Assembly: GCA_964525295.1 (NCBI GenBank)
Contig: CAZGEO010000002.1
Location: 65,230-129,229, forward strand
Source: an uncultured Candidatus Saccharibacteria bacterium
GTDB lineage: Bacteria > Patescibacteriota > Dojkabacteria > GCA-002793355
Length of the DNA: 64,000 nucleotides
Reading direction: 5' to 3'
Shown: piece after piece, positions 5,397-49,636 of the stretch
Layout of the letters: every line of letters starts with the position of its first letter
How positions within the stretch are numbered: position 1 is the first letter of the stretch
Translations under genes and position numbers: made by a program
Notes under the pieces: model-generated
Told to the model about the DNA's origin: nothing
Databases searched by the model: none
The model's input: the letters and a program-made list of their open reading frames with translations, nothing else

Positions 5397-5601
5397 CTTC
5401 GTACATTTTATCGATTGTGTGTTTATTACTGTCGTTTAACAGCGTATCAAACACGAAATTATCATTCCAAAGCATGTCACAAAGTGCCATGATCTTGAAA
5501 TACAGCTCTTTTCTGAGCGATATAGAATTGTGTGTCATGTAAAGATTCTAAATGAATTTCAGAATAGTTTTGCGAAAATCTTGCTAAAATTAAGAAATGT
5601 A

Positions 5602-5621
5602 ATTTCATGGATACATGAAAT
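5602..5621. promoter_or_regulatory. Perfect 8-bp inverted repeat ATTTCATG-GATA-CATGAAAT, a candidate operator
   Basis: Palindrome 22 bp upstream of the XRE-family regulator start at 5643. Autoregulated HTH repressors typically bind sites like this. Confidence 0.4.
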
Positions 5622-5642
5622 CATATTGCGTACGATTTCACC

Positions 5643-6209
5643 ATGACAGATCAGCAAGTAGGGGCGATAATTAGAGAGAATCGTAAAAAATTAGGGCTAA
5701 CACAAGGGCAACTAGCAGAAAAAATTGGAGTCACCTGGGAGATGATAAGTCGATATGAAAGAGGTCGTTCCTCGGCGCTTTTGAAAATTCTTGAGCTGTC
5801 AGTGGCCTTGAACATTTCTCCAAGTATTTTTCTTGGTGGTACAGGTGGGTTTAGTGAAAATTCATCGCTTTATGAAACTGCAAATTATGTTCCCGTTCTT
5901 ACGTTAGTACCACAATCTAGAGATGAATTGTTTCAAGCTATACAGGTTGAACAAGAAGGCACAAAACTCTTTACCGATTCTGCCGGCGGTATTAAATTCG
6001 CAATAAATCTTGAACAGGCAAAGAGAATTCGTATTTCGGTGAGTACGATACTCTCAAAAGGTCTTTTAGTTTGTACAACTTCGCTTGAAGGTATGAAATT
6101 AGGAGATATTGTCGTGGCAGTTAAGGGTGGTTTATTGGTTGTTGAAAATTATGAACCTGGCTTGCAGGTATTGGCGAAAGTTGTGCAGTGGGTGGTGAAA
6201 TTTGGGTAA
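5643..6209 (+). CDS. XRE-family helix-turn-helix transcriptional regulator with an uncharacterised C-terminal domain
   Basis: N-terminal LGLTQGQLAEKIGVTWEMISRYERG is a canonical Cro/C1-type HTH. Confidence 0.7.
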   Translation: MTDQQVGAIIRENRKKLGLTQGQLAEKIGVTWEMISRYERGRSSALLKILELSVALNISPSIFLGGTGGFSENSSLYETANYVPVLTLVPQSRDELFQAIQVEQEGTKLFTDSAGGIKFAINLEQAKRIRISVSTILSKGLLVCTTSLEGMKLGDIVVAVKGGLLVVENYEPGLQVLAKVVQWVVKFG

Positions 6210-6328
6210 CACTTGAGGTAATTTGCAATAGTGAAATGCTTGCATGTAGTGTTATATTTTAATCTAACCACGTTGCTTGGGCGAATCCTCGGTTATGTTC
6301 TGGCGTGACATGCCTGTATTAAAGCGAT

Positions 6329-6356
6329 TTGACACTTTCTAAAAGTTTAGTATAAT
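6329..6356 (+). promoter_or_regulatory. Consensus sigma70-type promoter TTGACA-16nt-TATAAT
   Basis: Exact -35 TTGACA at 6329-6334 and exact -10 TATAAT at 6351-6356. The predicted TSS is about 6362-6364. Confidence 0.55.
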
Positions 6357-6367
6357 TCTTTGCAATT

Positions 6368-6457
6368 ATGTACTCTCGAACAAGTGTAAACACAATTAGC
6401 TCCCTCGGACTCCTCCTTAGCATTATTATTCTTTCAACATTCACTTTCGGGAGCTAA
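6368..6457 (+). CDS. 29-codon sORF encoding the hydrophobic peptide MYSRTSVNTISSLGLLLSIIILSTFTFGS
   Basis: The ATG lies 12 nt downstream of the perfect -10. The ORF is followed by a strong intrinsic terminator. It is below the 60-aa cut-off of the ORF track. A 9-bp stem (6396-6404 / 6449-6457) pairs across the ORF. Confidence 0.3.
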   Translation: MYSRTSVNTISSLGLLLSIIILSTFTFGS

Positions 6458-6486
6458 ATAACCATAAATAAAAATAAAGAAAATGG

Positions 6487-6516
6487 AAGCCTCCCGAAAG
6501 GGAGGCTTTTTTTTTT
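6487..6516 (+). terminator. Rho-independent terminator
   Basis: 9-bp GC-rich stem AAGCCTCCC / GGGAGGCTT with a GAAA tetraloop, followed by a 10-T run. Confidence 0.75.
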
Positions 6517-6538
6517 ATATAAATCAATTTAATAAAAA

Positions 6539-7564
6539 ATGCCAGAAGCAAAAGAGAAAATTTTTCTTGGTGACCAATCTCCGGGAATGGGAGGCCTGTT
6601 ACGTGCAGCTGCAGCTGAGAAAATTCCCGGCGCTGAAGTGACTTATGTTATTCAAGATGCAGATGCACCTTGGAAAGCTACTGGGTCATCAGTTGCAATT
6701 GTTCGCAGTCCAAAGTGGCCCGATTATTGGGCAACTGCAACAAGGAATGCGTGGTCACCAAATACACCGAATCATCAATCAGAAGGTTTTCGTAGTAGTG
6801 TAGGTGCCCCGATGGGATTGGTGTATTTAGCAGGGCCATCAGGAGGCAGTACTTTTCATTCTGAGCGTGAAAATGCGAAAGTTCTCGAACTCTCGACTGA
6901 AATGTTAGTTGAAGAGGTTACATGGGCCAGAAAAGTCGCCGAATTGATGGGTAAAACAGAAGGCGTGAAAAAAGCTGATGCAATGCTAGATCAATTAGCT
7001 AAGGAAAAAATGAATGTATATCAGTCAACGAAGTTTATTGCGAATGAGCAGGGCCTTTCTGTACCAATTGATGCAATGGTTGATTTATTTACCCGCGAGC
7101 CAGTCAGGTTAAGTGAGCATATACCGCCAAATAATTATTGGTTAATTTCTGCCTTAGGACATCGCTCTGAATGGGATGGAAAAGCACCTCAACGTGGTTC
7201 GATACTACTTCCTAAAGGGCACGCATTACCCCTTGAATTGGCAGCAAAGGGATATCGAATTGGCTACACAGGTATGAGTTACAAAGCGGAAATGCTTGCG
7301 ATGAGAGATCAATTCGTTCCTGGATTAGAAGTAAAAATGATGAATATAACATTCAAATGGGATTTCGATGGAGATAATCCATTAAAAGCATTGGAAGCCT
7401 TTTACATTCGTAAAAACCTAGAGCGTCCTGTTCCTAAAACAGTTTCAGTCGACACAGAAATCTTCGAAGGCATTAACAAGTATTGGATGGGCCGCCCGAC
7501 TTCGATTTCTTGGCTGATTCTTGGTGGGAAAATCACACCTGAATTTGAGTACGAAAACTTATAA
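6539..7564 (+). CDS. Hypothetical protein, 341 aa
   Basis: Long ORF with no recognisable motif. It starts directly after the terminator T-run. Confidence 0.55.
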   Translation: MPEAKEKIFLGDQSPGMGGLLRAAAAEKIPGAEVTYVIQDADAPWKATGSSVAIVRSPKWPDYWATATRNAWSPNTPNHQSEGFRSSVGAPMGLVYLAGPSGGSTFHSERENAKVLELSTEMLVEEVTWARKVAELMGKTEGVKKADAMLDQLAKEKMNVYQSTKFIANEQGLSVPIDAMVDLFTREPVRLSEHIPPNNYWLISALGHRSEWDGKAPQRGSILLPKGHALPLELAAKGYRIGYTGMSYKAEMLAMRDQFVPGLEVKMMNITFKWDFDGDNPLKALEAFYIRKNLERPVPKTVSVDTEIFEGINKYWMGRPTSISWLILGGKITPEFEYENL

Positions 7565-7582
7565 TTTTATCGATAATTATTT

Positions 7583-8305
7583 ATGGAAAATGACTACAAA
7601 GTAAAAGTTTTAGCAATTGGAGCTCACCCAGACGATGTTGAATTTGGGTGTGGTGGATTAATGAAAAAGTTTGCCAAAAAAGGATATAAAACTGCCATCG
7701 TTGACATGAGCCAAGCCGAACTGTCAAGTAATGGGACGGTCGATGAGCGCATGAAGGAGGCAGGCGACTCGCGTGAAATTTTAGGAGCAGCATATCGTGA
7801 GAATTTGAAGATTCCTAATAATTTCTTTTTTAATACAAAGGAATACCAAGACAAACTTGTATATGCAGTCAGAAAGTACCAACCAGAGATGATTTTGGCA
7901 CCATACTTTTTTGATCGTCACCCTGATCATGAAAATGCGTCAAAGCTGATTCGCGACACCTTGTTCACTGCAGGATTGCGTATGTACAAATCAGAATTTG
8001 AGAAACACAGGCCAATTTATGTCCTTTTTTATATGATGTGGTACGAATTCCAACCTTCTTTGGTCGTTGATATTTCTGATGAACTTGATGACAAAATCAA
8101 TTCTCTTTTGGCATATAAGTCTCAATTTGATTTAGCTCCAGGAAGAGTAAAAACAATAGATAATGAAGATGCAACTCTTAAATATGTTGAGGCACGTGCA
8201 AGAACTTATGGCTTCCCAATTCAACGGAAATACGGAGAGCCATACTTAAGTATCAACAATCTTGGTGTTGATGACCCATTTTCGGTATTACCTAACTTTT
8301 TTTAA
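7583..8305 (+). CDS. PIG-L/LmbE-family N-acetylglucosaminyl deacetylase
   Basis: AHPDDVEFGCGG motif and HPDH motif of the LmbE-like zinc deacetylase superfamily (BshB/MshB/PIG-L). Confidence 0.8.
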   Translation: MENDYKVKVLAIGAHPDDVEFGCGGLMKKFAKKGYKTAIVDMSQAELSSNGTVDERMKEAGDSREILGAAYRENLKIPNNFFFNTKEYQDKLVYAVRKYQPEMILAPYFFDRHPDHENASKLIRDTLFTAGLRMYKSEFEKHRPIYVLFYMMWYEFQPSLVVDISDELDDKINSLLAYKSQFDLAPGRVKTIDNEDATLKYVEARARTYGFPIQRKYGEPYLSINNLGVDDPFSVLPNFF

Positions 8306-8306
8306 T

Positions 8307-9425
8307 ATGCAGAAAAATAGAGTATTGTTTGTAGCTTCTCCATGGTTGGGAGGAAGCGGTACTGTGGCGTATCGATTAGCTGAAGAAATTGAGAAAAAAG
8401 GCTGGGAGGTTCATTTTCTGTCATATGAAAAGCCTTTTAAATCGACGATGGAAAGCAAAATTGTTTATCATTTGGTGAAAGGGTACGAATATCCATTGTT
8501 CCCCTTTCCCATGTATGAACTCGCGCTAGCAGAAGAGATCGTGAAGACGGTTGTCGAGAATGACATTGCAGTTATTGCTGTGCATTATGGTATTTTGTTT
8601 GGCCATGCGGCAATGGTTGCGAAAAGTATACTCGCAACCTATGGGAGGAAAGTAAAGGTAGTTTTAACGATGCACGGGAGCGATGTTTTGGGATTTGATT
8701 TAGAAAAACCAGGAACAATTTTACCAAAGCACTTAAATAATTGGGTATTAGATTCTGCAGACCATATTACCGTAGCTTCAAAAGCTTTGCGTAAGTCGAT
8801 TCACGACATCAATGGGAAGTTCAGGGAGATTCAGCTCGTTCCGAATTTTATTGATGAATCGATCTATTATCCGAGCGATTTGAAAGTGAAAAAGAAGAAT
8901 ATTTGTATTCATATTTCGAACTATCGGAAAGTGAAGCAGCCACTTATTGTTGTGAAGGCATTCGAGCAGGTACAGAAGTCAATTCCCGATGCTGAGTTAT
9001 GGTTGGTTGGCGAAGGTCCACTATTAAGTGAAGCAATGAATTATGTCACGGCAAACGATATAAAGAATGTTACGCAATGTGGCAAAATTGATAGCGAATC
9101 CGAAATAGCTGCGATTTTGCGTAAATCAAAGGTGATGCTGTTACCTTCAATTTTTGAGAACTTTTCACTTGTAGCAATTGAAGCTCAGGCATGTGGGATT
9201 CCTGTAGTTGCTTCAAATACAGGAGGAATCCCTGAAGTCGTAATCGATACCAAAACAGGGTTCCTGAGCAATCCTCAAGATTTTGAATCGATGGCACAAA
9301 ATATTGTGAGCCTCTTAACAAACGAGGATGTGTACAGAAAGGTGAGTAGGGCTGCAGTTGCGAATGCACAACTGTACAAAATCGTTGAAGTCGCAGACCA
9401 GTACATAAGGCTTTTCAGACACTGA
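8307..9425 (+). CDS. GT4-family retaining glycosyltransferase of the BshA/MshA type
   Basis: N-terminal SPWLGGSGTVAYRLAEEIEKKGWEVHF resembles BshA/MshA. C-terminal LLPSIFENFSLVAIEAQACGIPVV carries the EX7E motif. The start was moved to the ATG at 8307 from the ORF-track start at 8262. Confidence 0.75.
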   Translation: MQKNRVLFVASPWLGGSGTVAYRLAEEIEKKGWEVHFLSYEKPFKSTMESKIVYHLVKGYEYPLFPFPMYELALAEEIVKTVVENDIAVIAVHYGILFGHAAMVAKSILATYGRKVKVVLTMHGSDVLGFDLEKPGTILPKHLNNWVLDSADHITVASKALRKSIHDINGKFREIQLVPNFIDESIYYPSDLKVKKKNICIHISNYRKVKQPLIVVKAFEQVQKSIPDAELWLVGEGPLLSEAMNYVTANDIKNVTQCGKIDSESEIAAILRKSKVMLLPSIFENFSLVAIEAQACGIPVVASNTGGIPEVVIDTKTGFLSNPQDFESMAQNIVSLLTNEDVYRKVSRAAVANAQLYKIVEVADQYIRLFRH

Positions 9426-10954: not shown

Positions 10955-12319
10955 TTAAGTTCTTTTTGACTTATGTCTGTGTCGTTTGTTTTTTTCTTGT
11001 GCTGGGGCGTCGGCATCTGTTGCGAGTCTGAATTCTTTAGGCATGAGTGAATAAACTATTTCTTGCGCAACTAGAAAAGCTAATCGACGTGTAGCAATCT
11101 CTGTCGCATATTTGGCATCTTCAGTTTGCTTATTTTTTGTTTCAATACCGCACATCGCAGATTCTGCAAGAACATATAATGCATTTTTGGCATCTTCATC
11201 CTCGACTTTATGGGTGAAATTTTGTAAGTTTACAGCATAATGGATATCATCTTTTCCTAAATATCCACGTACAAAATGATTCGCAGCAGAATTAATTTGT
11301 TGGTGGAGTTGATCAATAAGATTCCTAACATCGGTAGTATCAGCTGGAAATCGTGCACATTTGAACCGTTTAATGAATACCGAAAAATCTTTCTTTAGTG
11401 CATGTTGAAGTGTAAGAATTAATCCTTTTGCATAAGGGGAGGCCAGAACTGATGAATCGTTTTCAAAGTCTAATAAGTCAGCAGTACCAGTAAATTTTGA
11501 ACCTCTGGTAAATCTTGAAATATCAACAGTATCTTCGAAGTCAGTTAACGCAATCTTGAACGAAGTCATTCTATTTTGGGCAATTATATATCTATTACCA
11601 AAGTGAAGCTGAGGGTGGCATTCACCGATTGCTGCTAACTCACCAATAGCGCGATACGTTGTTGCTAGGCAGGAGTCCCATCCATATAATTCAATTCCTT
11701 CGTAATAATCAATAACTTTCCCCCCGTTTATTGTGTAAACACCAGTTGCAAATCTTGTAGGCCTATTGTCGATAGAATATTCAAATGCAGCGATGTATTC
11801 TGGAATTATAAGGTTAGTTGAGCCATTTCGACTTCTGTTAAGTTTTTTAACCTTATTATACGCACGTTGCGTATTCAAAACTTTTTCTCTCAGCGAGTCA
11901 GAATAGTAACCTCCACGTGGACTTTGATCGTTAACAAAAGTAACTTCACCGTTTGCTGAAATTACCGCTGATTGAATAACTAAATTACCTCCAGGTAGAT
12001 AAGGCATTTCAGATACTGGTAATGAGATTGGTAGCTCTGTGAAGGATTGCCCTTGTTTTCGAAATCTTCCCCCGTTTATTACAAAGAATCTTGGTAATCC
12101 AGGTGCATTAGATACTGCGATAAGATTTCGCGTTGTTTCGTTAGGAACGAATTCGCGTGTTTCATACACGTTTTTTGGGTAAGTTCCTTTTTCCAGCCAT
12201 TCATCAAGTAATGCTATCAATTCTTGCGATGGTTTTGGAATTGATTCAACTAAGGGGCTTGGTGAGGTAATAGTACAAACTCTTGTCGAATCTGTGAGTA
12301 TCTCAGTTTTCATCTTCAC
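10955..12319 (-). CDS. Hypothetical protein with an aminoglycoside-phosphotransferase-like kinase fold and a substituted catalytic Asp
   Basis: ECHPQLHFGN aligns to the APH-family catalytic loop CHGDLHPGN with GD replaced by PQ. Downstream LTDFED resembles the metal-binding IDFE. Calling this a pseudokinase is an inference. Confidence 0.4.
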   Translation of the reverse strand: MKMKTEILTDSTRVCTITSPSPLVESIPKPSQELIALLDEWLEKGTYPKNVYETREFVPNETTRNLIAVSNAPGLPRFFVINGGRFRKQGQSFTELPISLPVSEMPYLPGGNLVIQSAVISANGEVTFVNDQSPRGGYYSDSLREKVLNTQRAYNKVKKLNRSRNGSTNLIIPEYIAAFEYSIDNRPTRFATGVYTINGGKVIDYYEGIELYGWDSCLATTYRAIGELAAIGECHPQLHFGNRYIIAQNRMTSFKIALTDFEDTVDISRFTRGSKFTGTADLLDFENDSSVLASPYAKGLILTLQHALKKDFSVFIKRFKCARFPADTTDVRNLIDQLHQQINSAANHFVRGYLGKDDIHYAVNLQNFTHKVEDEDAKNALYVLAESAMCGIETKNKQTEDAKYATEIATRRLAFLVAQEIVYSLMPKEFRLATDADAPAQEKNKRHRHKSKRT

Positions 12320-13187
12320 ACCCGATTAATTTTGCCATTTTTTGCAAGATTGCAAAATATTCTTTATTGTATTTGTTTTCTGGTTCAACCGCACTAGGTA
12401 TTGGATTTCTTGCTGGTGATAAATATATAGCCGGGATGGTAATGACTTGACCTGGGTCAAATGCACCATGAAGTACATTTGCAAGAGCACCGCTTGGCGT
12501 TTGTGACGTACCATTGGTATCGTGAATAAGATAGTAAATGTTTGTACTCTGTTTAATAATTCTTGTGCATATTTCATCAATTGAACGTCCGAATGGGAAA
12601 TTCAGCAACATTGAGTGAAAGCCTTCTCTTTTGGACTCTATGAGTTCCTTAATTACGTTGAAATATTTTTCGAACCACTCAACCATTTTATTACTCTCTA
12701 CAGTCGGACGTTCTTTTAATACTGAATCTAGAGCTTTAGTTTCAAAATTATTTAGAAATATTCTTTGAAACATTGATGTTGCCGTAAATATTCCGCTGGT
12801 ATGATAGCCTCCGACGTATGCACTCTTCACGTCTTCTCGACCTAAGACATGTATCTTTAATATCGTATTGGCACTTCTTTCAGTAAAAACATGTTGGCGC
12901 ACTACGACAGGAAGGTCGCTTATGTCATTTTGGTCGCAATGAGTTGCAATAACTGGAACCATTCTTACCTCACTACCTTTGATGTTTTTTACTTCTACCG
13001 CAATGTAACCAATACCTGCGAATTGATCAGGATCGATGATTTCAAGCGTTCTCATCGGCAGAATTGCATTGTTATATCGGTCAATAATTCTATTTTCGAG
13101 CTTGGTAATATTTTCGCGCGTGGCTGGGATATTTTTGTGATTTGGTCCAGTTGGAGAAAATTTTGCATCGTAAAGAGGAGCCATCAA
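12303..13187 (-). CDS. Hypothetical protein, 294 aa
   Basis: Long ORF that overlaps the downstream gene by 17 nt. No recognisable motif. Confidence 0.55.
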   Translation of the reverse strand: MMAPLYDAKFSPTGPNHKNIPATRENITKLENRIIDRYNNAILPMRTLEIIDPDQFAGIGYIAVEVKNIKGSEVRMVPVIATHCDQNDISDLPVVVRQHVFTERSANTILKIHVLGREDVKSAYVGGYHTSGIFTATSMFQRIFLNNFETKALDSVLKERPTVESNKMVEWFEKYFNVIKELIESKREGFHSMLLNFPFGRSIDEICTRIIKQSTNIYYLIHDTNGTSQTPSGALANVLHGAFDPGQVITIPAIYLSPARNPIPSAVEPENKYNKEYFAILQKMAKLIGCEDEN

Positions 13188-13272
13188 TAATTTTATTATA
13201 TTATCCTGTAGTGTATTTTATTTCTTTTGGGATTTATTGTCAAAGTTACTCAGTTAAGATGATCGCTTGAGA

Positions 13273-15075
13273 CTAAAAACGTTCATTTAATGCTAAGTGC
13301 GCTACTGCAACAAGCCTTAATGCATCTAGTTCGTATTCATTTATTGGTACTTTGACGATTATTTGCTCAAGTTGTCTCCAATACGTTTCAAATAATTCTG
13401 GGCGCAACGCTTTATTACATAAACCTGCAGCAGTCTCTAAAATGCTTATTCGGTATGCTTTTTCGACATTAAGTACTTTTTCAAAAAAATTGTTTGCGTT
13501 AAACCACGTTGGGTGAATCTCGTTTTTTGCTGAAATTTTATAGGTAGCAAGGGCAACAGTATCGCTATTCCGCGATTCATTCCAAAGTTGTTCGGCAAGT
13601 TCGGCACGCTCCGCGTATTTTGGTGGCGCATATTGCATAAAGTGTTCCGTATTGCCCGTGCGTATCAATTGAATGAATTGTGCAATATGCGTGTGATTTT
13701 CATGTTTCATGGTATTGGTGTATTTCGCAATATCCTGGAAGTCAAGTGGTTCTGGTAATCGTTTGTACCGATTGTTTTGAAGTTGTAACTTCTTATCGTA
13801 TTTTTTGAAAAGTGAGTCTCGGCTTCTTGCAATATTTTTTCTAGTCTGAGCGTATGGTTCTTGCGTATATTTTTGTTGTAATTCATGCGCAATTGCGTAG
13901 TAAATTTTTTGGTCAAAATAGGGCACGAAACGCGACAGAATTACAGCTACTTCGTTTGGATTAGGGCAGATATCTTGTAAAAGTACAGCAAGATATTTTG
14001 CTCGATGTGAATCGAGCTCTTTTTTGGTAAATAATCTGAGAACTGGGGCGGGGGGTGGGGCAAGGCGTCGTAATGATTTTGCCGTAAGCATTATTTCGAT
14101 ATCTACAGGAGTGATCTCTTTGAATGGAGTTCTCTGCAGGCTGTATGGCGCAAAATCGCTGAAAAATACTAAATCGCCGGCATCTGCAAAGCCATATTCA
14201 GAGTCTTTGAAGAATTGTTGATTGTGTGAAGAGGCTTCATCGTATACTGCGCCGGCCTTTAGTAAATGAATCACCGTTTTTGCAACGTGTGCAAAACCAT
14301 TATCTCTAATTAATTCTTTTGCATGTGCAGGAATCATTTCACCTCTGACTCGTACCCGTGGTACTCGTTTTTCACCAGGTGATAGTGAGCCTAATGTGAC
14401 TACTTTCGGTAGTTCATCTTCGCGAAAAGCCTTCGGCTTTTCGCGTACTTTTCTGAAACGCTCATACAAATTGGCTAATCTTTCATTAAGTACGGGTAAT
14501 TCTGCTATGGCAAAGGGTATATGAAATTTTCTATTTGCAAGAAAATTTGTTGTGGTTTCGCTTTGCCAGGTATGAGTGTTCCCGATGATTGCTAGGGCAT
14601 TGATCATTTCGAACAAAGCTTCTTCTTCATACAATGCGCCGGCAACACGTGGATGGGCAGTAGATTCCATGAAAAGTTCCATAGGTTTTATTGGATATGC
14701 AAATCCAGCACTATCTAGCTCCTCTCGTTCAAGTGTAACGTCATTCCCGTCACCTTTAACTGTTACTGTGAGTTTTGTGTTCTTGTCGATGACAATTTTG
14801 TGTGAACTGGATCTACCTTCTCGGTGAACTTCCCCTTTTTTTCCTTTTCGTGTTGGGGCAAGAAATAGTATTGGCGTGAGTTTTGCCACAACTGTGGCTA
14901 ATCCATTAGCGATTTCTTTAGGAAATCCTGCTATTTTTAAATCTTCGCAATAATTCCTTTTGTAGGCTTCAATTGTTTTTTCGCTATCTTTAGGTTTAAT
15001 ACGACCTGTATATAAAGAATTGCGTTTTGATGATAACTCCGGGAGATTTTCAAAAATAGGCGCCGGTATTGGCAT
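13273..15075 (-). CDS. Hypothetical protein, 600 aa
   Basis: Long ORF. No recognisable motif. Confidence 0.55.
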   Translation of the reverse strand: MPIPAPIFENLPELSSKRNSLYTGRIKPKDSEKTIEAYKRNYCEDLKIAGFPKEIANGLATVVAKLTPILFLAPTRKGKKGEVHREGRSSSHKIVIDKNTKLTVTVKGDGNDVTLEREELDSAGFAYPIKPMELFMESTAHPRVAGALYEEEALFEMINALAIIGNTHTWQSETTTNFLANRKFHIPFAIAELPVLNERLANLYERFRKVREKPKAFREDELPKVVTLGSLSPGEKRVPRVRVRGEMIPAHAKELIRDNGFAHVAKTVIHLLKAGAVYDEASSHNQQFFKDSEYGFADAGDLVFFSDFAPYSLQRTPFKEITPVDIEIMLTAKSLRRLAPPPAPVLRLFTKKELDSHRAKYLAVLLQDICPNPNEVAVILSRFVPYFDQKIYYAIAHELQQKYTQEPYAQTRKNIARSRDSLFKKYDKKLQLQNNRYKRLPEPLDFQDIAKYTNTMKHENHTHIAQFIQLIRTGNTEHFMQYAPPKYAERAELAEQLWNESRNSDTVALATYKISAKNEIHPTWFNANNFFEKVLNVEKAYRISILETAAGLCNKALRPELFETYWRQLEQIIVKVPINEYELDALRLVAVAHLALNERF

Positions 15076-15187
15076 TATAAATGATGCTGTCTACTTATTG
15101 TGAATTGTAGCCGAAAATACCAGATAAAGTCAACGGTATGTTATCTCGTAAGTGGAGAACAGCATACTCAGGGTGATATTCCTTTAA

Positions 15188-16192
15188 CTACGACCTGCAC
15201 TGGTCTTGAATTTTCTGGAAAACTTGTCCGAGAGTATTTGCAAACCTTCCTCGATCGACACTCAGGTTATATGCTTCGTTATTGTTTAATGTTTCAGGAT
15301 GAGTGGTGTTGGTTTGAAACGGATCTGTACCGTATGCATCGACTTCGAAATCAATTGCTATGTTCGGCGAAATACTTCCACCCCCAAGTAAATCAGCTTT
15401 GTCGGTAAAACCTACTTGATCTTCTGGGGATAACTGAGTTTTGTAGTAAATAAGAGTTTTTTCGTTTTTTCTAAAGAATCTCTCAACGCGGGAAGGTTTT
15501 TTTACAACAACATTAGTTTTTTCGCCAGAAGTATAGATTTTGTATGGAAATCCAACGATAGTTAACCTGTTAAGGTCAGGATTTACTTTCCAGAAATTTT
15601 CTCTGTGCAACAGTTCATTCGGGAGTGTTTCGCCTCCACTTTGTCTTTCTATCCATGAAAGATCTTGAACTCCTGGTAGAGGTAAGTCGTCCATTTCTTC
15701 TAATTTTGTTCCATCTGGATAACTTTCATATTTTGGAACAGAAATTGCTTGTATAAGACTTGTTGGTCTATAAACACCACTTGCGCCATCGAACGTACAA
15801 ATAGCGGTCGCTGTTCTAACGGAGGCATTTTGAACTACGTACATTCTTGCTAATACGGCACCTTCAGGCAAATTCTCAAGGAGTTCCTTTGGTATAGATT
15901 TACTTTCATCTGGCTCTAATCTTCGTAAAATAAATGGAATTGGCTTTTCACCGACTTCTTGCTGAAGTCGCTCCCCCGAGGGGGAAACTTTTTCGATTGT
16001 ACCTGTTGCGAGTATTGGTGTTCGGCCTGTAGCTGCTTCGGGGGAGAATTTGTTGTATTCAGGGTTTCTGTCTTTGTAGATTCCGATAATTTCATTGATT
16101 AAATCAGTCGCTTGCTTGACTCTTTCATCTGCAGAATGAATGTCTTCCAGAGGTTTTCTTTCAGACTTTGTTGGTTCAAAAAGTGGTGCCAT
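15188..16192 (-). CDS. Hypothetical protein, 334 aa
   Basis: Long ORF. No recognisable motif. Confidence 0.55.
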   Translation of the reverse strand: MAPLFEPTKSERKPLEDIHSADERVKQATDLINEIIGIYKDRNPEYNKFSPEAATGRTPILATGTIEKVSPSGERLQQEVGEKPIPFILRRLEPDESKSIPKELLENLPEGAVLARMYVVQNASVRTATAICTFDGASGVYRPTSLIQAISVPKYESYPDGTKLEEMDDLPLPGVQDLSWIERQSGGETLPNELLHRENFWKVNPDLNRLTIVGFPYKIYTSGEKTNVVVKKPSRVERFFRKNEKTLIYYKTQLSPEDQVGFTDKADLLGGGSISPNIAIDFEVDAYGTDPFQTNTTHPETLNNNEAYNLSVDRGRFANTLGQVFQKIQDQCRS

Positions 16193-49586: not shown

Positions 49587-49609
49587 TTTGAAATAACTAG
49601 AAAAGTATA

Positions 49610-49636
49610 AGAGGGGCAATTGCCCCTCTTTTTTTG
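49610..49636 (+). terminator. Rho-independent terminator
   Basis: Stem AGAGGGGCAA / TTGCCCCTCT followed by a T7 run. Confidence 0.7.

What the first reader, a model, noticed from the sequence alone, without database searches (positions are those of the whole stretch)
6329..6518. Consensus promoter, 29-codon hydrophobic sORF and strong terminator form a compact unit, a candidate small membrane peptide or sRNA
An exact TTGACA and an exact TATAAT with a 16-nt spacer is the strongest promoter in the window. An ATG follows 12 nt later. The ORF encodes MYSRTSVNTISSLGLLLSIIILSTFTFGS, which has a single hydrophobic helix. A 9-bp stem pairs codons 10-12 with the stop-codon region. A textbook terminator (9-bp GC stem, GAAA loop, T10) follows 30 nt after the stop. 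The whole unit is about 150 nt and sits in an otherwise empty 330-bp intergenic gap. The architecture resembles type I toxin peptides, small membrane regulators, or a highly expressed sRNA. It is below the size cut-off of standard ORF callers.
Basis: seen in the sequence. Interest (0 to 1): 0.6.

Follow-up and report, generated by a model that had tools for sequence, protein, structure and literature searches.

The report
Leader-peptide attenuator before a CPR operon
The promoter, tiny hydrophobic ORF and terminator are most likely not a stand-alone toxin or small RNA but a conserved on/off switch (a translation-sensing transcription attenuator) that controls the operon starting 22 nt downstream, in an uncultured Patescibacteria (CPR) bacterium where no such switch has been described.

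Summary
The last codons of the sORF (6441-6457) are complementary to the terminator's 5' arm and loop, giving an antiterminator, and also to codons 10-12, giving a 1:2 helix. This is the classic 1:2 / 2:3 / 3:4 attenuator layout.

A short sORF followed by a terminator lies upstream of the orphan gene's homologue in 10 of 11 loci examined from other Patescibacteria. Terminator sequences differ between lineages, and the sORF 3' end co-varies with them (Fisher p=2e-13 against shuffles; P=5e-5 against cross-locus permutation). The genome is dominated by leaderless mRNAs, so an ATG just after the -10 box is a normal gene start. The sORFs show a frame-specific hydrophobic signal (T at codon position 2, p=8e-5) but no conservation of amino-acid sequence.

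Best reading: a ribosome-dependent transcription attenuator with a leaderless hydrophobic leader peptide. The signal it senses is unknown, and there are no expression data. I rate it a new variant of a known kind, of moderate interest.

The parts
6315..6321 (+). TGTATTA motif just upstream of the -35 box, conserved in the closest homologous leader (L002). Candidate UP element or operator (inferred).
   Evidence: alignment of window and L002
6329..6334 (+). -35 hexamer TTGACA
   Evidence: TTGACA or TTGACG is also present in L002, L013, L010, L007 and L014.
6351..6356 (+). -10 hexamer TATAAT. The predicted transcription start is about 6362-6364 (inferred), which leaves a 5' UTR of only 3-6 nt.
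   Evidence: genome-wide -10-to-ATG spacing
6368..6457 (+). Leader ORF of 29 codons plus TAA (MYSRTSVNTISSLGLLLSIIILSTFTFGS). It has no Shine-Dalgarno sequence and a leaderless-type start.
   Evidence: Frame-specific hydrophobicity; leaderless genome.
6396..6404 (+). Region 1 (TTAGCTCCC, codons 10-12), the 5' strand of the 1:2 helix (anti-antiterminator)
   Evidence: pair I10; p=0.002 against shuffles
6404..6433 (+). Leu/Ile-rich codon run (codons 13-22, LGLLLSIIIL), the predicted zone where a slowed ribosome keeps region 2 free. Codons 11-16 are mostly used less often than equal synonymous usage: AGC 0.11, TCC 0.06, CTC 0.11 (three times).
   Evidence: the sensing role is inferred
6441..6457 (+). 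Region 2 (TCACTTTCGGGAGCTAA), the last codons plus the stop codon. It pairs either with region 1 or with the terminator's 5' arm and loop (antiterminator).
   Evidence: pairs I6 and I10; E=-15.4 kcal/mol, p=0.0095
6458..6484 (+). A-rich spacer between the sORF stop codon and the terminator
   Evidence: partly conserved in L002
6487..6508 (+). Intrinsic terminator hairpin: 5' arm AAGCCTCCC (region 3), loop GAAA, 3' arm GGGAGGCTT (region 4). Hairpin energy -19.0 kcal/mol.
   Evidence: 19/19 identical in L002
6507..6516 (+). T10 tract of the terminator
6539..7564 (+). First regulated gene: an orphan 341-aa protein with no Pfam, NCBIfam or PDB match. It has no Shine-Dalgarno sequence and no canonical -10 box of its own.
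7583..8305 (+). BshB1-like PIG-L deacetylase, in the same operon
   Evidence: (250.8 bits, cut-off 182.5)
8307..9425 (+). BshA-like GT4 glycosyltransferase, in the same operon
   Evidence: (288.7 bits, cut-off 273.7)
5643..6209 (+). Xre-type HTH regulator upstream, syntenic in L002 (46% identity). Possible regulator of the leader promoter (inferred; context only).

Best explanation
The unit is the 5' leader of the operon that begins at 6539 (orphan 341-aa gene, BshB1-like gene, BshA-like gene). It works as a ribosome-dependent transcription attenuator.

Transcription starts at the consensus promoter, and the RNA begins almost directly at the AUG of a 29-codon leader ORF. The last codons of that ORF (region 2, 6441-6457) can pair with the terminator's 5' arm and loop (region 3). 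That pairing is an antiterminator: it stops the terminator hairpin (regions 3 and 4) from forming.

- If a ribosome translates smoothly to the stop codon at 6455-6457, it covers region 2. The terminator then forms and transcription ends at the T10 tract. The operon is OFF, and a terminated RNA of about 150 nt is released.
- If the ribosome is slowed or stalled in the Leu/Ile-rich codon run (roughly codons 6-21), it keeps region 1 (6396-6404) away from region 2 and leaves region 2 free. Region 2 captures region 3 as soon as region 3 emerges, and RNA polymerase reads through. The operon is ON.
- If the leader is not translated at all, the 9-bp 1:2 helix can hold region 2, so termination is favoured.

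Shown: the parts, the three mutually exclusive pairings, their conservation and co-variation in 10 loci, the leaderless habit of the genome, and a frame-specific hydrophobic signal in the sORFs.

Inferred: that the sORF is translated; that competition during transcription decides the outcome; and that the signal is ribosome speed on hydrophobic codons (supply of Leu, Ile, Val or Phe-tRNA, or general translation capacity).
For: (1) Layout. Promoter, sORF, terminator and gene are all on the + strand. The T-run ends 22 nt before the gene's ATG, there is no promoter-like site in between, and the gene lacks both a Shine-Dalgarno sequence and the canonical -10 box that precedes other genes. In L005, L009 and L013 the gene's ATG is only 4-9 nt past the terminator as defined, so it can only be expressed by read-through.

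(2) Alternative pairings in the window. Regions 1:2 form 9 perfect bp. Regions 2:3 are 92% complementary over 13 nt. Regions 3:4 are the terminator.

(3) Conservation. In 10 of 11 loci that encode a homologue of the orphan gene and have enough upstream sequence, a short sORF (26-51 codons) followed by a terminator lies upstream. In every one of the 10, the best partner of the terminator's 5' arm ends 0-17 nt before the sORF stop codon. Per-locus p values range from 0.0005 to 0.16, and Fisher's combined p is 1.9e-13.

(4) Co-variation. At least six unrelated terminator sequences (for example CCTCCC, CCTCCTGACC, CCCCTCGGC, GAGCCCCGC, CCGGCCCTCT) are each matched by their own sORF 3' end. Own-locus pairing beats cross-locus permutations at P=5e-5, or 1e-4 with one locus per terminator class.

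(5) Simulation of the nascent transcript. Before the 3' arm is made, the 5' arm is sequestered with P=0.6-0.98. A 30-nt ribosome footprint on the last 8-10 codons or on the stop codon releases it: window 0.84 to about 0.4, L005 0.93 to 0, L009 0.98 to 0.01.

(6) The 1:2 helix is significant in the window (p=0.002), L002 (0.010), L014 (0.003) and L009 (0.03). Fisher's combined p is 1.8e-5.

(7) Translation is plausible. Only 6 of 51 ORFs have a Shine-Dalgarno-like motif, and 16 of 40 ATG genes have a strong -10 box ending 5-8 nt before the ATG, against about 0.9 expected. The spacing from the -10 box to the sORF ATG is 7 nt in L013 (which also has a 12/12 promoter), 8 in L002, 9 in L014, 11 in the window, 12 in L007 and 13 in L010.

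(8) Frame-specific signal. T counts at codon positions 1, 2 and 3 are 68, 128 and 93 (p=8e-5; p=0.0016 for a lineage-thinned subset). Frame-0 hydrophobicity exceeds shuffles in 7 of 10 loci.

(9) The terminator hairpin is identical at 19 of 19 positions between the window and L002, although the flanking proteins are only 46% identical.
Against: - There are no expression data of any kind.
- sORF length is only marginally greater than chance (per-locus p 0.04-0.36, combined 0.05). Because the A-rich spacer has stop codons in all frames, where the stop falls carries little weight.
- Substitutions among the three alignable sORFs are spread evenly over codon positions (8/10/10, 9/12/12, 5/5/6), so nothing shows purifying selection on the peptide sequence.
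- In the window the ATG is 11 nt after the -10 box, outside the genome's modal 5-8 nt. The mRNA would therefore carry a 5' UTR of 3-6 nt rather than being strictly leaderless.
- At equilibrium the full-length leader folds into the terminator for almost every ribosome position, so the model depends on kinetic competition during transcription.
- The 1:2 helix is not detectable in L005, L007, L010 or L015.
- The L007 and L010 peptides are not clearly hydrophobic.
- No single amino acid is shared as a regulatory run, and the operon is not an amino-acid pathway, so the physiological signal is unexplained.
- In L006, L010, L014 and L015 the unit lies 120-700 nt upstream of the gene, and the gene there has its own Shine-Dalgarno sequence, so an intervening promoter cannot be excluded.
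- Several loci are related to each other (L005/L009/L013; window/L002), so the combined p values overstate independence.
Confidence: 0.62

Rival explanations
1. The sORF is a genuine small membrane protein gene. The hydrophobic peptide is the functional product, comparable to KdpF, AcrZ or PmrR-type peptides encoded at the front of an operon. The terminator only sets a high peptide-to-enzyme expression ratio through partial read-through. This could also hold alongside attenuation, as a dual function like that of the leader peptide peTrpL (PMC7298713).
For: Hydrophobicity is frame-specific and stronger than composition explains in 7 of 10 loci. Peptide length is exactly 26 codons in four loci (L005, L009, L013, L006). 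The window has a consensus promoter. The window peptide has a hydrophobic stretch of about 18 residues.
Against: The amino-acid sequence is not conserved, and substitutions show no third-position bias. The hydrophobic cores are only 12-15 residues in most loci, which is short for a membrane span. The L007 and L010 peptides are not hydrophobic. The downstream proteins look soluble, so no membrane complex needs a subunit. This reading does not explain why the sORF 3' end co-varies with the terminator's 5' arm.
Confidence: 0.15
2. The unit is a translation-independent conditional terminator. The leader would be a riboswitch, or the target of a protein or RNA, that switches between the 2:3 and 3:4 structures, and the open reading frame would be incidental.
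For: The terminator/antiterminator alternatives are the best-supported feature. sORF length is barely beyond chance. There is no codon-position bias in substitutions. The window's ATG is 11 nt from the -10 box, outside the modal range. A syntenic HTH protein is encoded upstream.
Against: No Rfam family matches any of the leaders. The leader body is not alignable even between the two closest loci, so no conserved aptamer is visible. T enrichment at codon position 2 is a reading-frame signal that an untranslated RNA should not show. An ATG lies 7-13 nt after the -10 box in all six loci with a recognisable promoter, in genomes that use leaderless starts.
Confidence: 0.13
3. The unit is an independent trans-acting small RNA gene of about 150 nt. 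The promoter and terminator would delimit an abundant sRNA that regulates other mRNAs by base pairing.
For: A consensus promoter plus a strong terminator predict an abundant short transcript. Terminated attenuator RNAs can act in trans, as rnTrpL does (PMC6614838).
Against: The position directly in front of one particular operon is conserved in 10 loci while the sequence is not. A trans-acting seed sequence would be expected to be conserved. This reading explains neither the 2:3 complementarity nor the reading-frame signal. A secondary trans role cannot be excluded.
Confidence: 0.06
4. The unit is a type I toxin-antitoxin module: a small hydrophobic toxic peptide repressed by an antisense RNA.
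For: The peptide is small and hydrophobic, and the mRNA is structured.
Against: No promoter-like site lies on the opposite strand within or next to the unit. The unit is single-copy in the window. It is strictly syntenic with a metabolic operon across distant lineages. The peptide sequence is not conserved.
Confidence: 0.02

Closest known systems
Classical leader-peptide transcription attenuators of amino-acid operons (trpL, leuL, ilvL/ivbL, pheL, hisL, thrL). Stated from established knowledge; Rfam holds them as Leu_leader, Phe_leader, Thr_leader and His_leader.
   Same: The order of parts is the same: promoter, short leader ORF, intrinsic terminator, structural genes. Both have three mutually exclusive helices (1:2, 2:3, 3:4), a stop codon placed so that a terminating ribosome covers region 2, and a run of hydrophobic codons (GLLL..IIIL) that resembles the leuL and ilvL leader peptides.
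   Different: Sequence and structure score below the Rfam thresholds (Phe_leader 36.5 bits against a threshold of 55, and that score comes from the terminator). The leader ORF has no Shine-Dalgarno sequence and starts at or near the 5' end of the RNA. No single regulatory amino acid is shared between loci. The operon is not an amino-acid biosynthesis operon. The host is a Patescibacteria bacterium.
Leaderless polycysteine short-ORF attenuators of mycobacteria (Canestrari et al., bioRxiv 10.1101/834739)
   Same: Both have an unannotated leaderless sORF as the first cistron of an operon. In both, ribosome pausing in the sORF remodels a downstream RNA duplex and switches on the genes that follow.
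   Different: [quoted passage not shown] This unit has no Cys run, and the regulated structure is an intrinsic transcription terminator. Only in the Amesbacteria-type loci does the terminator's 3' arm (GGAGG, 9-14 nt before the ATG) also look like a ribosome-binding site.
Antibiotic-responsive ribosome-stalling attenuators, such as the msrD leader (PMC10314930) and the tylosin-induced yxjB leader (PMC6851288)
   Same: Both have a short leader peptide, often hydrophobic, whose stalled ribosome favours an antiterminator and induces the downstream gene.
   Different: Those leaders precede resistance genes and need a drug bound in the ribosome's exit tunnel. Nothing here links the operon to antibiotic resistance, and no conserved arrest motif is visible.
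Dual-function attenuator products rnTrpL and peTrpL of Sinorhizobium (PMC6614838, PMC7298713)
   Same: They show that the terminated leader RNA and the leader peptide of an attenuator can each have a trans function.
   Different: There is no evidence here for any trans target. The peptide and RNA sequences are not conserved between loci.

Membership tests
Ribosome-dependent (leader-peptide) transcription attenuators | A short ORF lies between the promoter and the first structural gene, on the same strand | tested here: met
   sORF 6368-6457, gene at 6539. The same arrangement occurs in 10 homologous loci.
Ribosome-dependent (leader-peptide) transcription attenuators | An intrinsic terminator lies in the leader, upstream of the structural gene | tested here: met
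   9-bp stem, GAAA loop, T10 tract, -19.0 kcal/mol, ending 22 nt before the ATG
Ribosome-dependent (leader-peptide) transcription attenuators | An antiterminator helix is mutually exclusive with the terminator and is conserved through co-variation | tested here: met
   6441-6453 pairs with 6491-6503. Across 10 loci Fisher p=1.9e-13; permutation P=5e-5.
Ribosome-dependent (leader-peptide) transcription attenuators | An anti-antiterminator (1:2) helix has its 5' strand inside the leader ORF | tested here: met
   Window 6396-6404 pairs with 6449-6457, p=0.002. Also significant in L002, L014 and L009, but not detectable in L005, L007, L010 or L015.
Ribosome-dependent (leader-peptide) transcription attenuators | The stop codon is placed so that a terminating ribosome masks the antiterminator strand | tested here: met
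   Region 2 ends 0-17 nt before the stop codon, or overlaps it, in all 10 loci. Masking the last codons releases the terminator's 5' arm.
Ribosome-dependent (leader-peptide) transcription attenuators | The leader contains a run of regulatory codons for the metabolite that the operon makes or uses | tested here: inconclusive
   A Leu/Ile run is present in the window and hydrophobic runs occur in most loci. However, the operon consists of an orphan gene plus BshB-like and BshA-like genes, which is not an amino-acid pathway.
Ribosome-dependent (leader-peptide) transcription attenuators | The leader ORF is actually translated, and termination responds to that translation | not testable with these tools
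   Only indirect support: a leaderless genome and T enrichment at codon position 2
Rfam amino-acid operon leaders (Phe_leader, Thr_leader, His_leader, Leu_leader) | The covariance-model score reaches the family's gathering threshold | tested here: not met
   Phe_leader 36.5 (threshold 55), Thr_leader 20.2 (55), His_leader 18.3 (49). No hit in the homologous loci.
Mycobacterial leaderless polycysteine sORF attenuators | The sORF is leaderless and is the first cistron of the operon | tested here: inconclusive
   The ATG lies 7-8 nt after the -10 box in L013 and L002, but 11 nt after it in the window, so a 5' UTR of 3-6 nt is predicted. No transcription-start data are available.
Mycobacterial leaderless polycysteine sORF attenuators | [quoted passage not shown] | tested here: not met
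   The window sORF has no Cys, and the other sORFs have at most two. The regulated structure is a terminator, and the window gene has no Shine-Dalgarno sequence.
Type I toxin-antitoxin | An antisense or overlapping antitoxin RNA has its own promoter | tested here: not met
   No promoter-like site on the - strand between 6178 and 7575
Riboswitch | A conserved ligand-binding aptamer lies upstream of the expression platform | tested here: not met
   No Rfam match. The leader body cannot be aligned between the window and L002.
Functional small membrane proteins (KdpF or AcrZ type) | The amino-acid sequence is conserved under purifying selection, and a hydrophobic segment is long enough to span the membrane | tested here: not met
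   Substitutions are spread evenly over codon positions. Hydrophobic cores are 12-18 residues.

The most novel reading that the evidence does not exclude
The hydrophobic leader peptide is selected as a peptide and not merely as a string of slow codons. It would act inside the ribosome as a nascent-chain sensor (an arrest peptide that responds to a metabolite or to a translation or membrane stress), or it would double as a membrane-active product. On this reading, Patescibacteria use a leaderless sensor-ORF plus terminator switch to control a lineage-specific pathway, built around an orphan 341-aa enzyme with BshB-like and BshA-like partners, that makes a low-molecular-weight thiol or glucosamine conjugate. 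It would be the first cis-regulatory RNA/peptide family defined for this phylum, and it would give a handle on the function of the orphan gene.
Probability: 0.15. Interest if true: 0.8.

Novelty: new variant of a known kind. Interest (0 to 1): 0.55.

Why it matters
Very little is known about gene regulation in Patescibacteria (CPR), ultrasmall and mostly uncultured episymbionts. Full-text searches of the held library found no paper on leader-peptide attenuation in this group and none linking bacillithiol genes to it.

If the reading is right:
- Ribosome-coupled transcription attenuation operates in these reduced genomes.
- It is built on leaderless translation, which combines two features so far described separately (classical attenuators, and the mycobacterial leaderless sORF attenuators, 10.1101/834739).
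- It controls a conserved, lineage-restricted three-gene module whose first gene has no known relatives or fold. That module is a candidate for the missing step of a bacillithiol-like pathway.

The element is small, carries a sigma-70 consensus promoter and a canonical terminator, and could be tested directly in E. coli or B. subtilis reporters. Its inducing signal would then point to the physiological role of the orphan operon.

It also illustrates a general annotation point. In leaderless genomes, sORFs below the size cut-off of gene callers that sit directly after a -10 box deserve attention as regulatory leaders.

Tried and rejected
- Known RNA families: Rfam at gathering threshold on the window and on nine homologous loci found only tRNAs. 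A permissive scan of the unit gave sub-threshold hits driven by the terminator.
- Mobile or phage origin: megablast of 5600-7600 against phages found nothing.
- Peptide families: Pfam and NCBIfam on the 29-aa peptide found nothing.
- Equilibrium folding of the full leader with a sliding ribosome mask: the terminator dominates at almost all positions. I replaced this with a model of the nascent transcript lacking the 3' arm.
- sORF length against shuffles: only marginal, combined p=0.05, so I do not use it as strong evidence.
- Codon-position analysis of L005, L009 and L013: no synonymous bias.
- Locus scans with the alignment of all eight proteins failed because no conserved stretch was found. 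They succeeded with a four-sequence alignment but returned only 2 loci per collection.
- L004 (P0003 locus, higher GC): no comparable sORF-terminator unit recognised.
- L008, L012, L017 and L018 have no upstream sequence. No DNA was available for the P0008 locus.
- Type I toxin: rejected. There is no antisense promoter, the unit is single-copy, and it is syntenic with one operon.
Full report
OBSERVATION. TTGACA (6329-6334), a 16-nt spacer and TATAAT (6351-6356) give a 12/12 promoter match. It is the only such match in the 64-kb window, where shuffles predict 0.10. An ATG at 6368 opens a 29-codon ORF, MYSRTSVNTISSLGLLLSIIILSTFTFGS, that ends with TAA at 6455-6457. A perfect 9-bp inverted repeat joins 6396-6404 (codons 10-12) to 6449-6457. 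A terminator follows: AAGCCTCCC-GAAA-GGGAGGCTT at 6487-6508, then T10 at 6507-6516. Strict intrinsic terminators are rare in this genome. I find three in 64 kb, and this is the only one directly in front of a gene.

The unit is not isolated. An Xre-type HTH gene lies upstream on the + strand (5643-6209). Downstream, 22 nt after the T-run, a 341-aa ORF begins (6539-7564). It is followed by a PIG-L deacetylase that scores above NCBIfam's equivalog cut-off for BshB1 (250.8 bits against 182.5) and a GT4 glycosyltransferase above the cut-off for BshA (288.7 against 273.7). The 341-aa gene has no Shine-Dalgarno sequence, no canonical -10 box, and no promoter-like site between the sORF and its ATG. 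Promoter, short ORF, terminator, then structural genes is the layout of a transcription attenuator.

ALTERNATIVE STRUCTURES. The segment at the end of the sORF (region 2, 6441-6457) has two possible partners. One is region 1 (6396-6404), with 9 perfect bp. The other is the terminator's 5' arm plus loop (6491-6503), 92% complementary over 13 nt. Together with the terminator (3:4) this gives the 1:2 / 2:3 / 3:4 scheme. The 2:3 duplex scores -15.4 kcal/mol, against -9.2 +/- 2.2 for dinucleotide shuffles of the sORF region (p=0.0095). The 1:2 duplex scores -16.4 against -8.9 +/- 2.0 (p=0.002).

COMPARATIVE EVIDENCE. The 341-aa protein is rare: 15 clusters among 5.8 billion, and every one that carries a name is from Patescibacteria (Amesbacteria, Paceibacterota, 'Patescibacteria group'). 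A further homologous locus lies in a Saccharibacteria assembly. It is always followed by a PIG-L gene and a GT4 or GT2 glycosyltransferase gene. I could read upstream DNA in 11 distinct loci. In 10 of them a short ORF of 26-51 codons followed by a terminator-like hairpin precedes the gene: the window, L002 (identical to L003), L005, L006, L007, L009 (identical to L011), L010, L013, L014 and L015, which is cut by the contig end. L004 has no recognisable unit.

The terminators differ between lineages: CCTCCC/GGGAGG, CCTCC/GGAGG, CCTCCTGACC/GGTCAGGAGG, ACCCCTCGGC/GCCGAGGGGT, GAGCCCCGC/GCGGGGCTC and CCGGCCCTCT/AGAGGGCCGG. In every locus the best partner of the 5' arm within the sORF region lies at the 3' end of the sORF and finishes 0-17 nt before the stop codon or overlaps it. 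Per-locus p values against 2000 shuffles run from 0.0005 to 0.16, and Fisher's combined p is 1.9e-13. Each terminator pairs much better with its own sORF end than with those of other loci (summed energy -182 against -131 +/- 10 kcal/mol; P=5e-5, or 1e-4 with one locus per terminator class). That is co-variation: region 2 changes together with the terminator. Related loci (L005/L009/L013; window/L002) inflate the combined p values somewhat, but the class-thinned test still holds. Between the window and L002 the flanking proteins are 46% identical and the sORF bodies cannot be aligned. Even so, the -35 box with an upstream TGTATTA motif and the terminator (19/19 positions) are conserved.

IS THE sORF TRANSLATED? 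There is no Shine-Dalgarno sequence, but this genome hardly uses them: 6 of 51 ORFs have an SD-like motif. Instead, 16 of 40 ATG genes have a strong -10 hexamer ending 5-8 nt before the ATG, against about 0.9 expected, so leaderless mRNAs are the norm. The sORF's ATG follows the -10 box by 7 nt in L013 (which also has a 12/12 promoter), 8 in L002, 9 in L014, 11 in the window, 12 in L007 and 13 in L010. The window value is just outside the modal range, so a 5' UTR of 3-6 nt is predicted.

The sORFs carry a reading-frame signal. T is enriched at codon position 2 (68/128/93 at positions 1/2/3; p=8e-5, or 0.0016 in a lineage-thinned subset), and frame-0 hydrophobicity exceeds composition-matched shuffles in 7 of 10 loci. 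Three results point the other way. ORF length is only marginally longer than chance (combined p=0.05). Substitutions among the three alignable 26-codon sORFs are spread evenly over codon positions. And because the A-rich spacer has stop codons in all frames, where the stop falls is weak evidence. My reading is that the frame is translated and hydrophobic residues or codons are favoured, but the exact peptide sequence is not under selection. That is what one expects of a leader peptide rather than a functional small protein.

MECHANISM. I modelled the nascent RNA at the moment the terminator's 5' arm and loop exist but the 3' arm does not. In that state the 5' arm is already sequestered, with P=0.6-0.93. 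L009 is the exception: P=0.01 without a ribosome and 0.97 with one, because its 1:2 helix competes. A 30-nt ribosome footprint placed on the last 8-10 codons or on the stop codon releases the arm in all seven loci tested (window 0.84 to 0.35-0.44; L005 0.93 to 0; L009 0.98 to 0.01; L006 0.80 to 0.28; L010 0.73 to 0.21; L007 0.89 to 0.17).

So a ribosome that reaches the end of the sORF favours termination, and a ribosome held further upstream favours read-through. Where there is no 1:2 helix, having no ribosome at all also favours read-through. In the window the permissive stall zone is roughly codons 6-21. It contains LGLLLSIII, and five of codons 11-16 are used less often than equal synonymous usage would give (AGC 0.11, TCC 0.06, CTC 0.11 three times). 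At equilibrium the complete leader folds into the terminator for nearly all ribosome positions, so, as with classical attenuators, the decision must be kinetic. In the Amesbacteria-type loci the terminator's 3' arm (GGAGG) lies 9-14 nt before the gene's ATG. There the same switch may also expose a ribosome-binding site (inference).

WHAT IS SENSED. This is the weakest step. The shared property is a run of hydrophobic codons (Leu, Ile, Val, Phe) in the part of the sORF where stalling would give read-through. My best guess is ribosome speed on those codons, meaning the supply of the corresponding charged tRNAs or general translation capacity. That would be a sensible proxy for nutrient supply in an auxotrophic episymbiont, but I give it only about 0.35. 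Why such a signal should control a BshB/BshA-like module is unexplained. A nascent-peptide (arrest) sensor and a dual-function membrane peptide are not excluded.

COMPARISON WITH KNOWN SYSTEMS. The unit works like the leader-peptide attenuators of amino-acid operons (established knowledge). It is not a member of any Rfam leader family. It shares the leaderless sensory sORF with the mycobacterial polycysteine attenuators, which act on translation rather than on a terminator (10.1101/834739). Antibiotic-responsive stalling leaders (PMC10314930, PMC6851288) are a further analogue. Such RNAs and leader peptides can acquire trans functions (PMC6614838, PMC7298713), but nothing here shows that. Type I toxin, riboswitch and stand-alone membrane protein each fail a defining feature that I could test (see the membership table).

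ORGANISM AND NOVELTY. RNase J from the window has unnamed relatives at 74% identity. Its nearest named relatives (Dojkabacteria, Peregrinibacteria, Uhrbacteria, 'Patescibacteria group') are at 36-43%. Full-text searches found no report of leader-peptide attenuation in Patescibacteria and none linking bacillithiol genes to them. I rate this a new variant of a known kind, of moderate interest (0.55). The mechanism class is textbook. The phylum, the leaderless start, the composition-only conservation of the hydrophobic leader peptide, and the orphan operon it controls are new, and the element can be tested directly in reporter assays.

CONFIDENCE. That the unit is a cis-acting conditional terminator for the downstream operon: about 0.8. 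That ribosomes translating the sORF drive the switch: about 0.6. That the signal is ribosome speed on hydrophobic codons: about 0.35.

Noticed in passing
window 6539-7564; loci L002, L005, L006, L007, L009, L010, L013, L014, L015, L017: The 341-aa protein belongs to a rare orphan family restricted to Patescibacteria (15 clusters at 90% identity among 5.8 billion proteins). It has no Pfam, NCBIfam or PDB sequence match, and its AlphaFold model (pLDDT 79, pTM 0.80) has no significant Foldseek hit in the PDB. It always sits directly upstream of a PIG-L/BshB-like deacetylase gene and a GT4 (BshA-like) or GT2 glycosyltransferase gene. It is a candidate for a missing enzyme, for example a BshC analogue, in a thiol or glucosamine-conjugate pathway.
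   Followed up: partly
whole window (e.g. gene starts at 1941, 10904(-), 16192(-), 28869(-), 36141, 56796(-), 59231(-), 63848(-)): The genome appears to rely on leaderless mRNAs. Only 6 of 51 long ORFs have a Shine-Dalgarno-like motif, and 16 of 40 ATG genes have a TATAAT-like hexamer ending 5-8 nt before the ATG (about 0.9 expected).
   Followed up: partly
window 6315-6321 and 5643-6209; L002 2719-2740 and 1197-1778: A TGTATTA motif just upstream of the -35 box is conserved between the window and L002, and both loci encode a syntenic Xre-type HTH protein (46% identical) upstream. This could be an operator-regulator pair acting on the leader promoter.
   Followed up: no
L005 2968-3003; L009 2468-2503; L013 1590-1625: In the Amesbacteria-type loci the terminator's 3' arm (GGAGG) lies 9-14 nt before the ATG of the downstream gene. 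The hairpin may therefore also sequester that gene's ribosome-binding site, giving combined transcriptional and translational control.
   Followed up: no
L014 1875-1940: A tRNA-like element lies just downstream of the L014 sORF-terminator unit. It scores 25.8 bits against Rfam tRNA (threshold 29), ARAGORN does not call it, and a called 111-aa ORF overlaps it. The unit in L014 is about 700 nt from the 325-aa gene, with an 82-aa ORF in between.
   Followed up: partly
window 6317-6330 and 6521-6534; 6504-6520 and 6527-6543: One AT-rich inverted repeat brackets the whole unit (14 nt, 86% complementary). In another, the U-run could pair with the A-rich region around the start codon of gene 6539 (17 nt, 82%). 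Both may be chance matches in AT-rich sequence, or the second may affect translation of read-through transcripts.
   Followed up: no
window 10955-16192 (- strand): A block of four large ORFs (454, 294, 600 and 334 aa) lies nearby on the - strand. I did not run them against any protein-family library. The same applies to several other large ORFs elsewhere in the window.
   Followed up: no
window 49609-49630: The only other strong + strand intrinsic terminator in the window (AAGAGGGGC-AATT-GCCCCTCTT, then T7) lies 23 nt after the stop of the 143-aa ORF and 91 nt before the next gene. It looks like an ordinary gene-end terminator.
   Followed up: no
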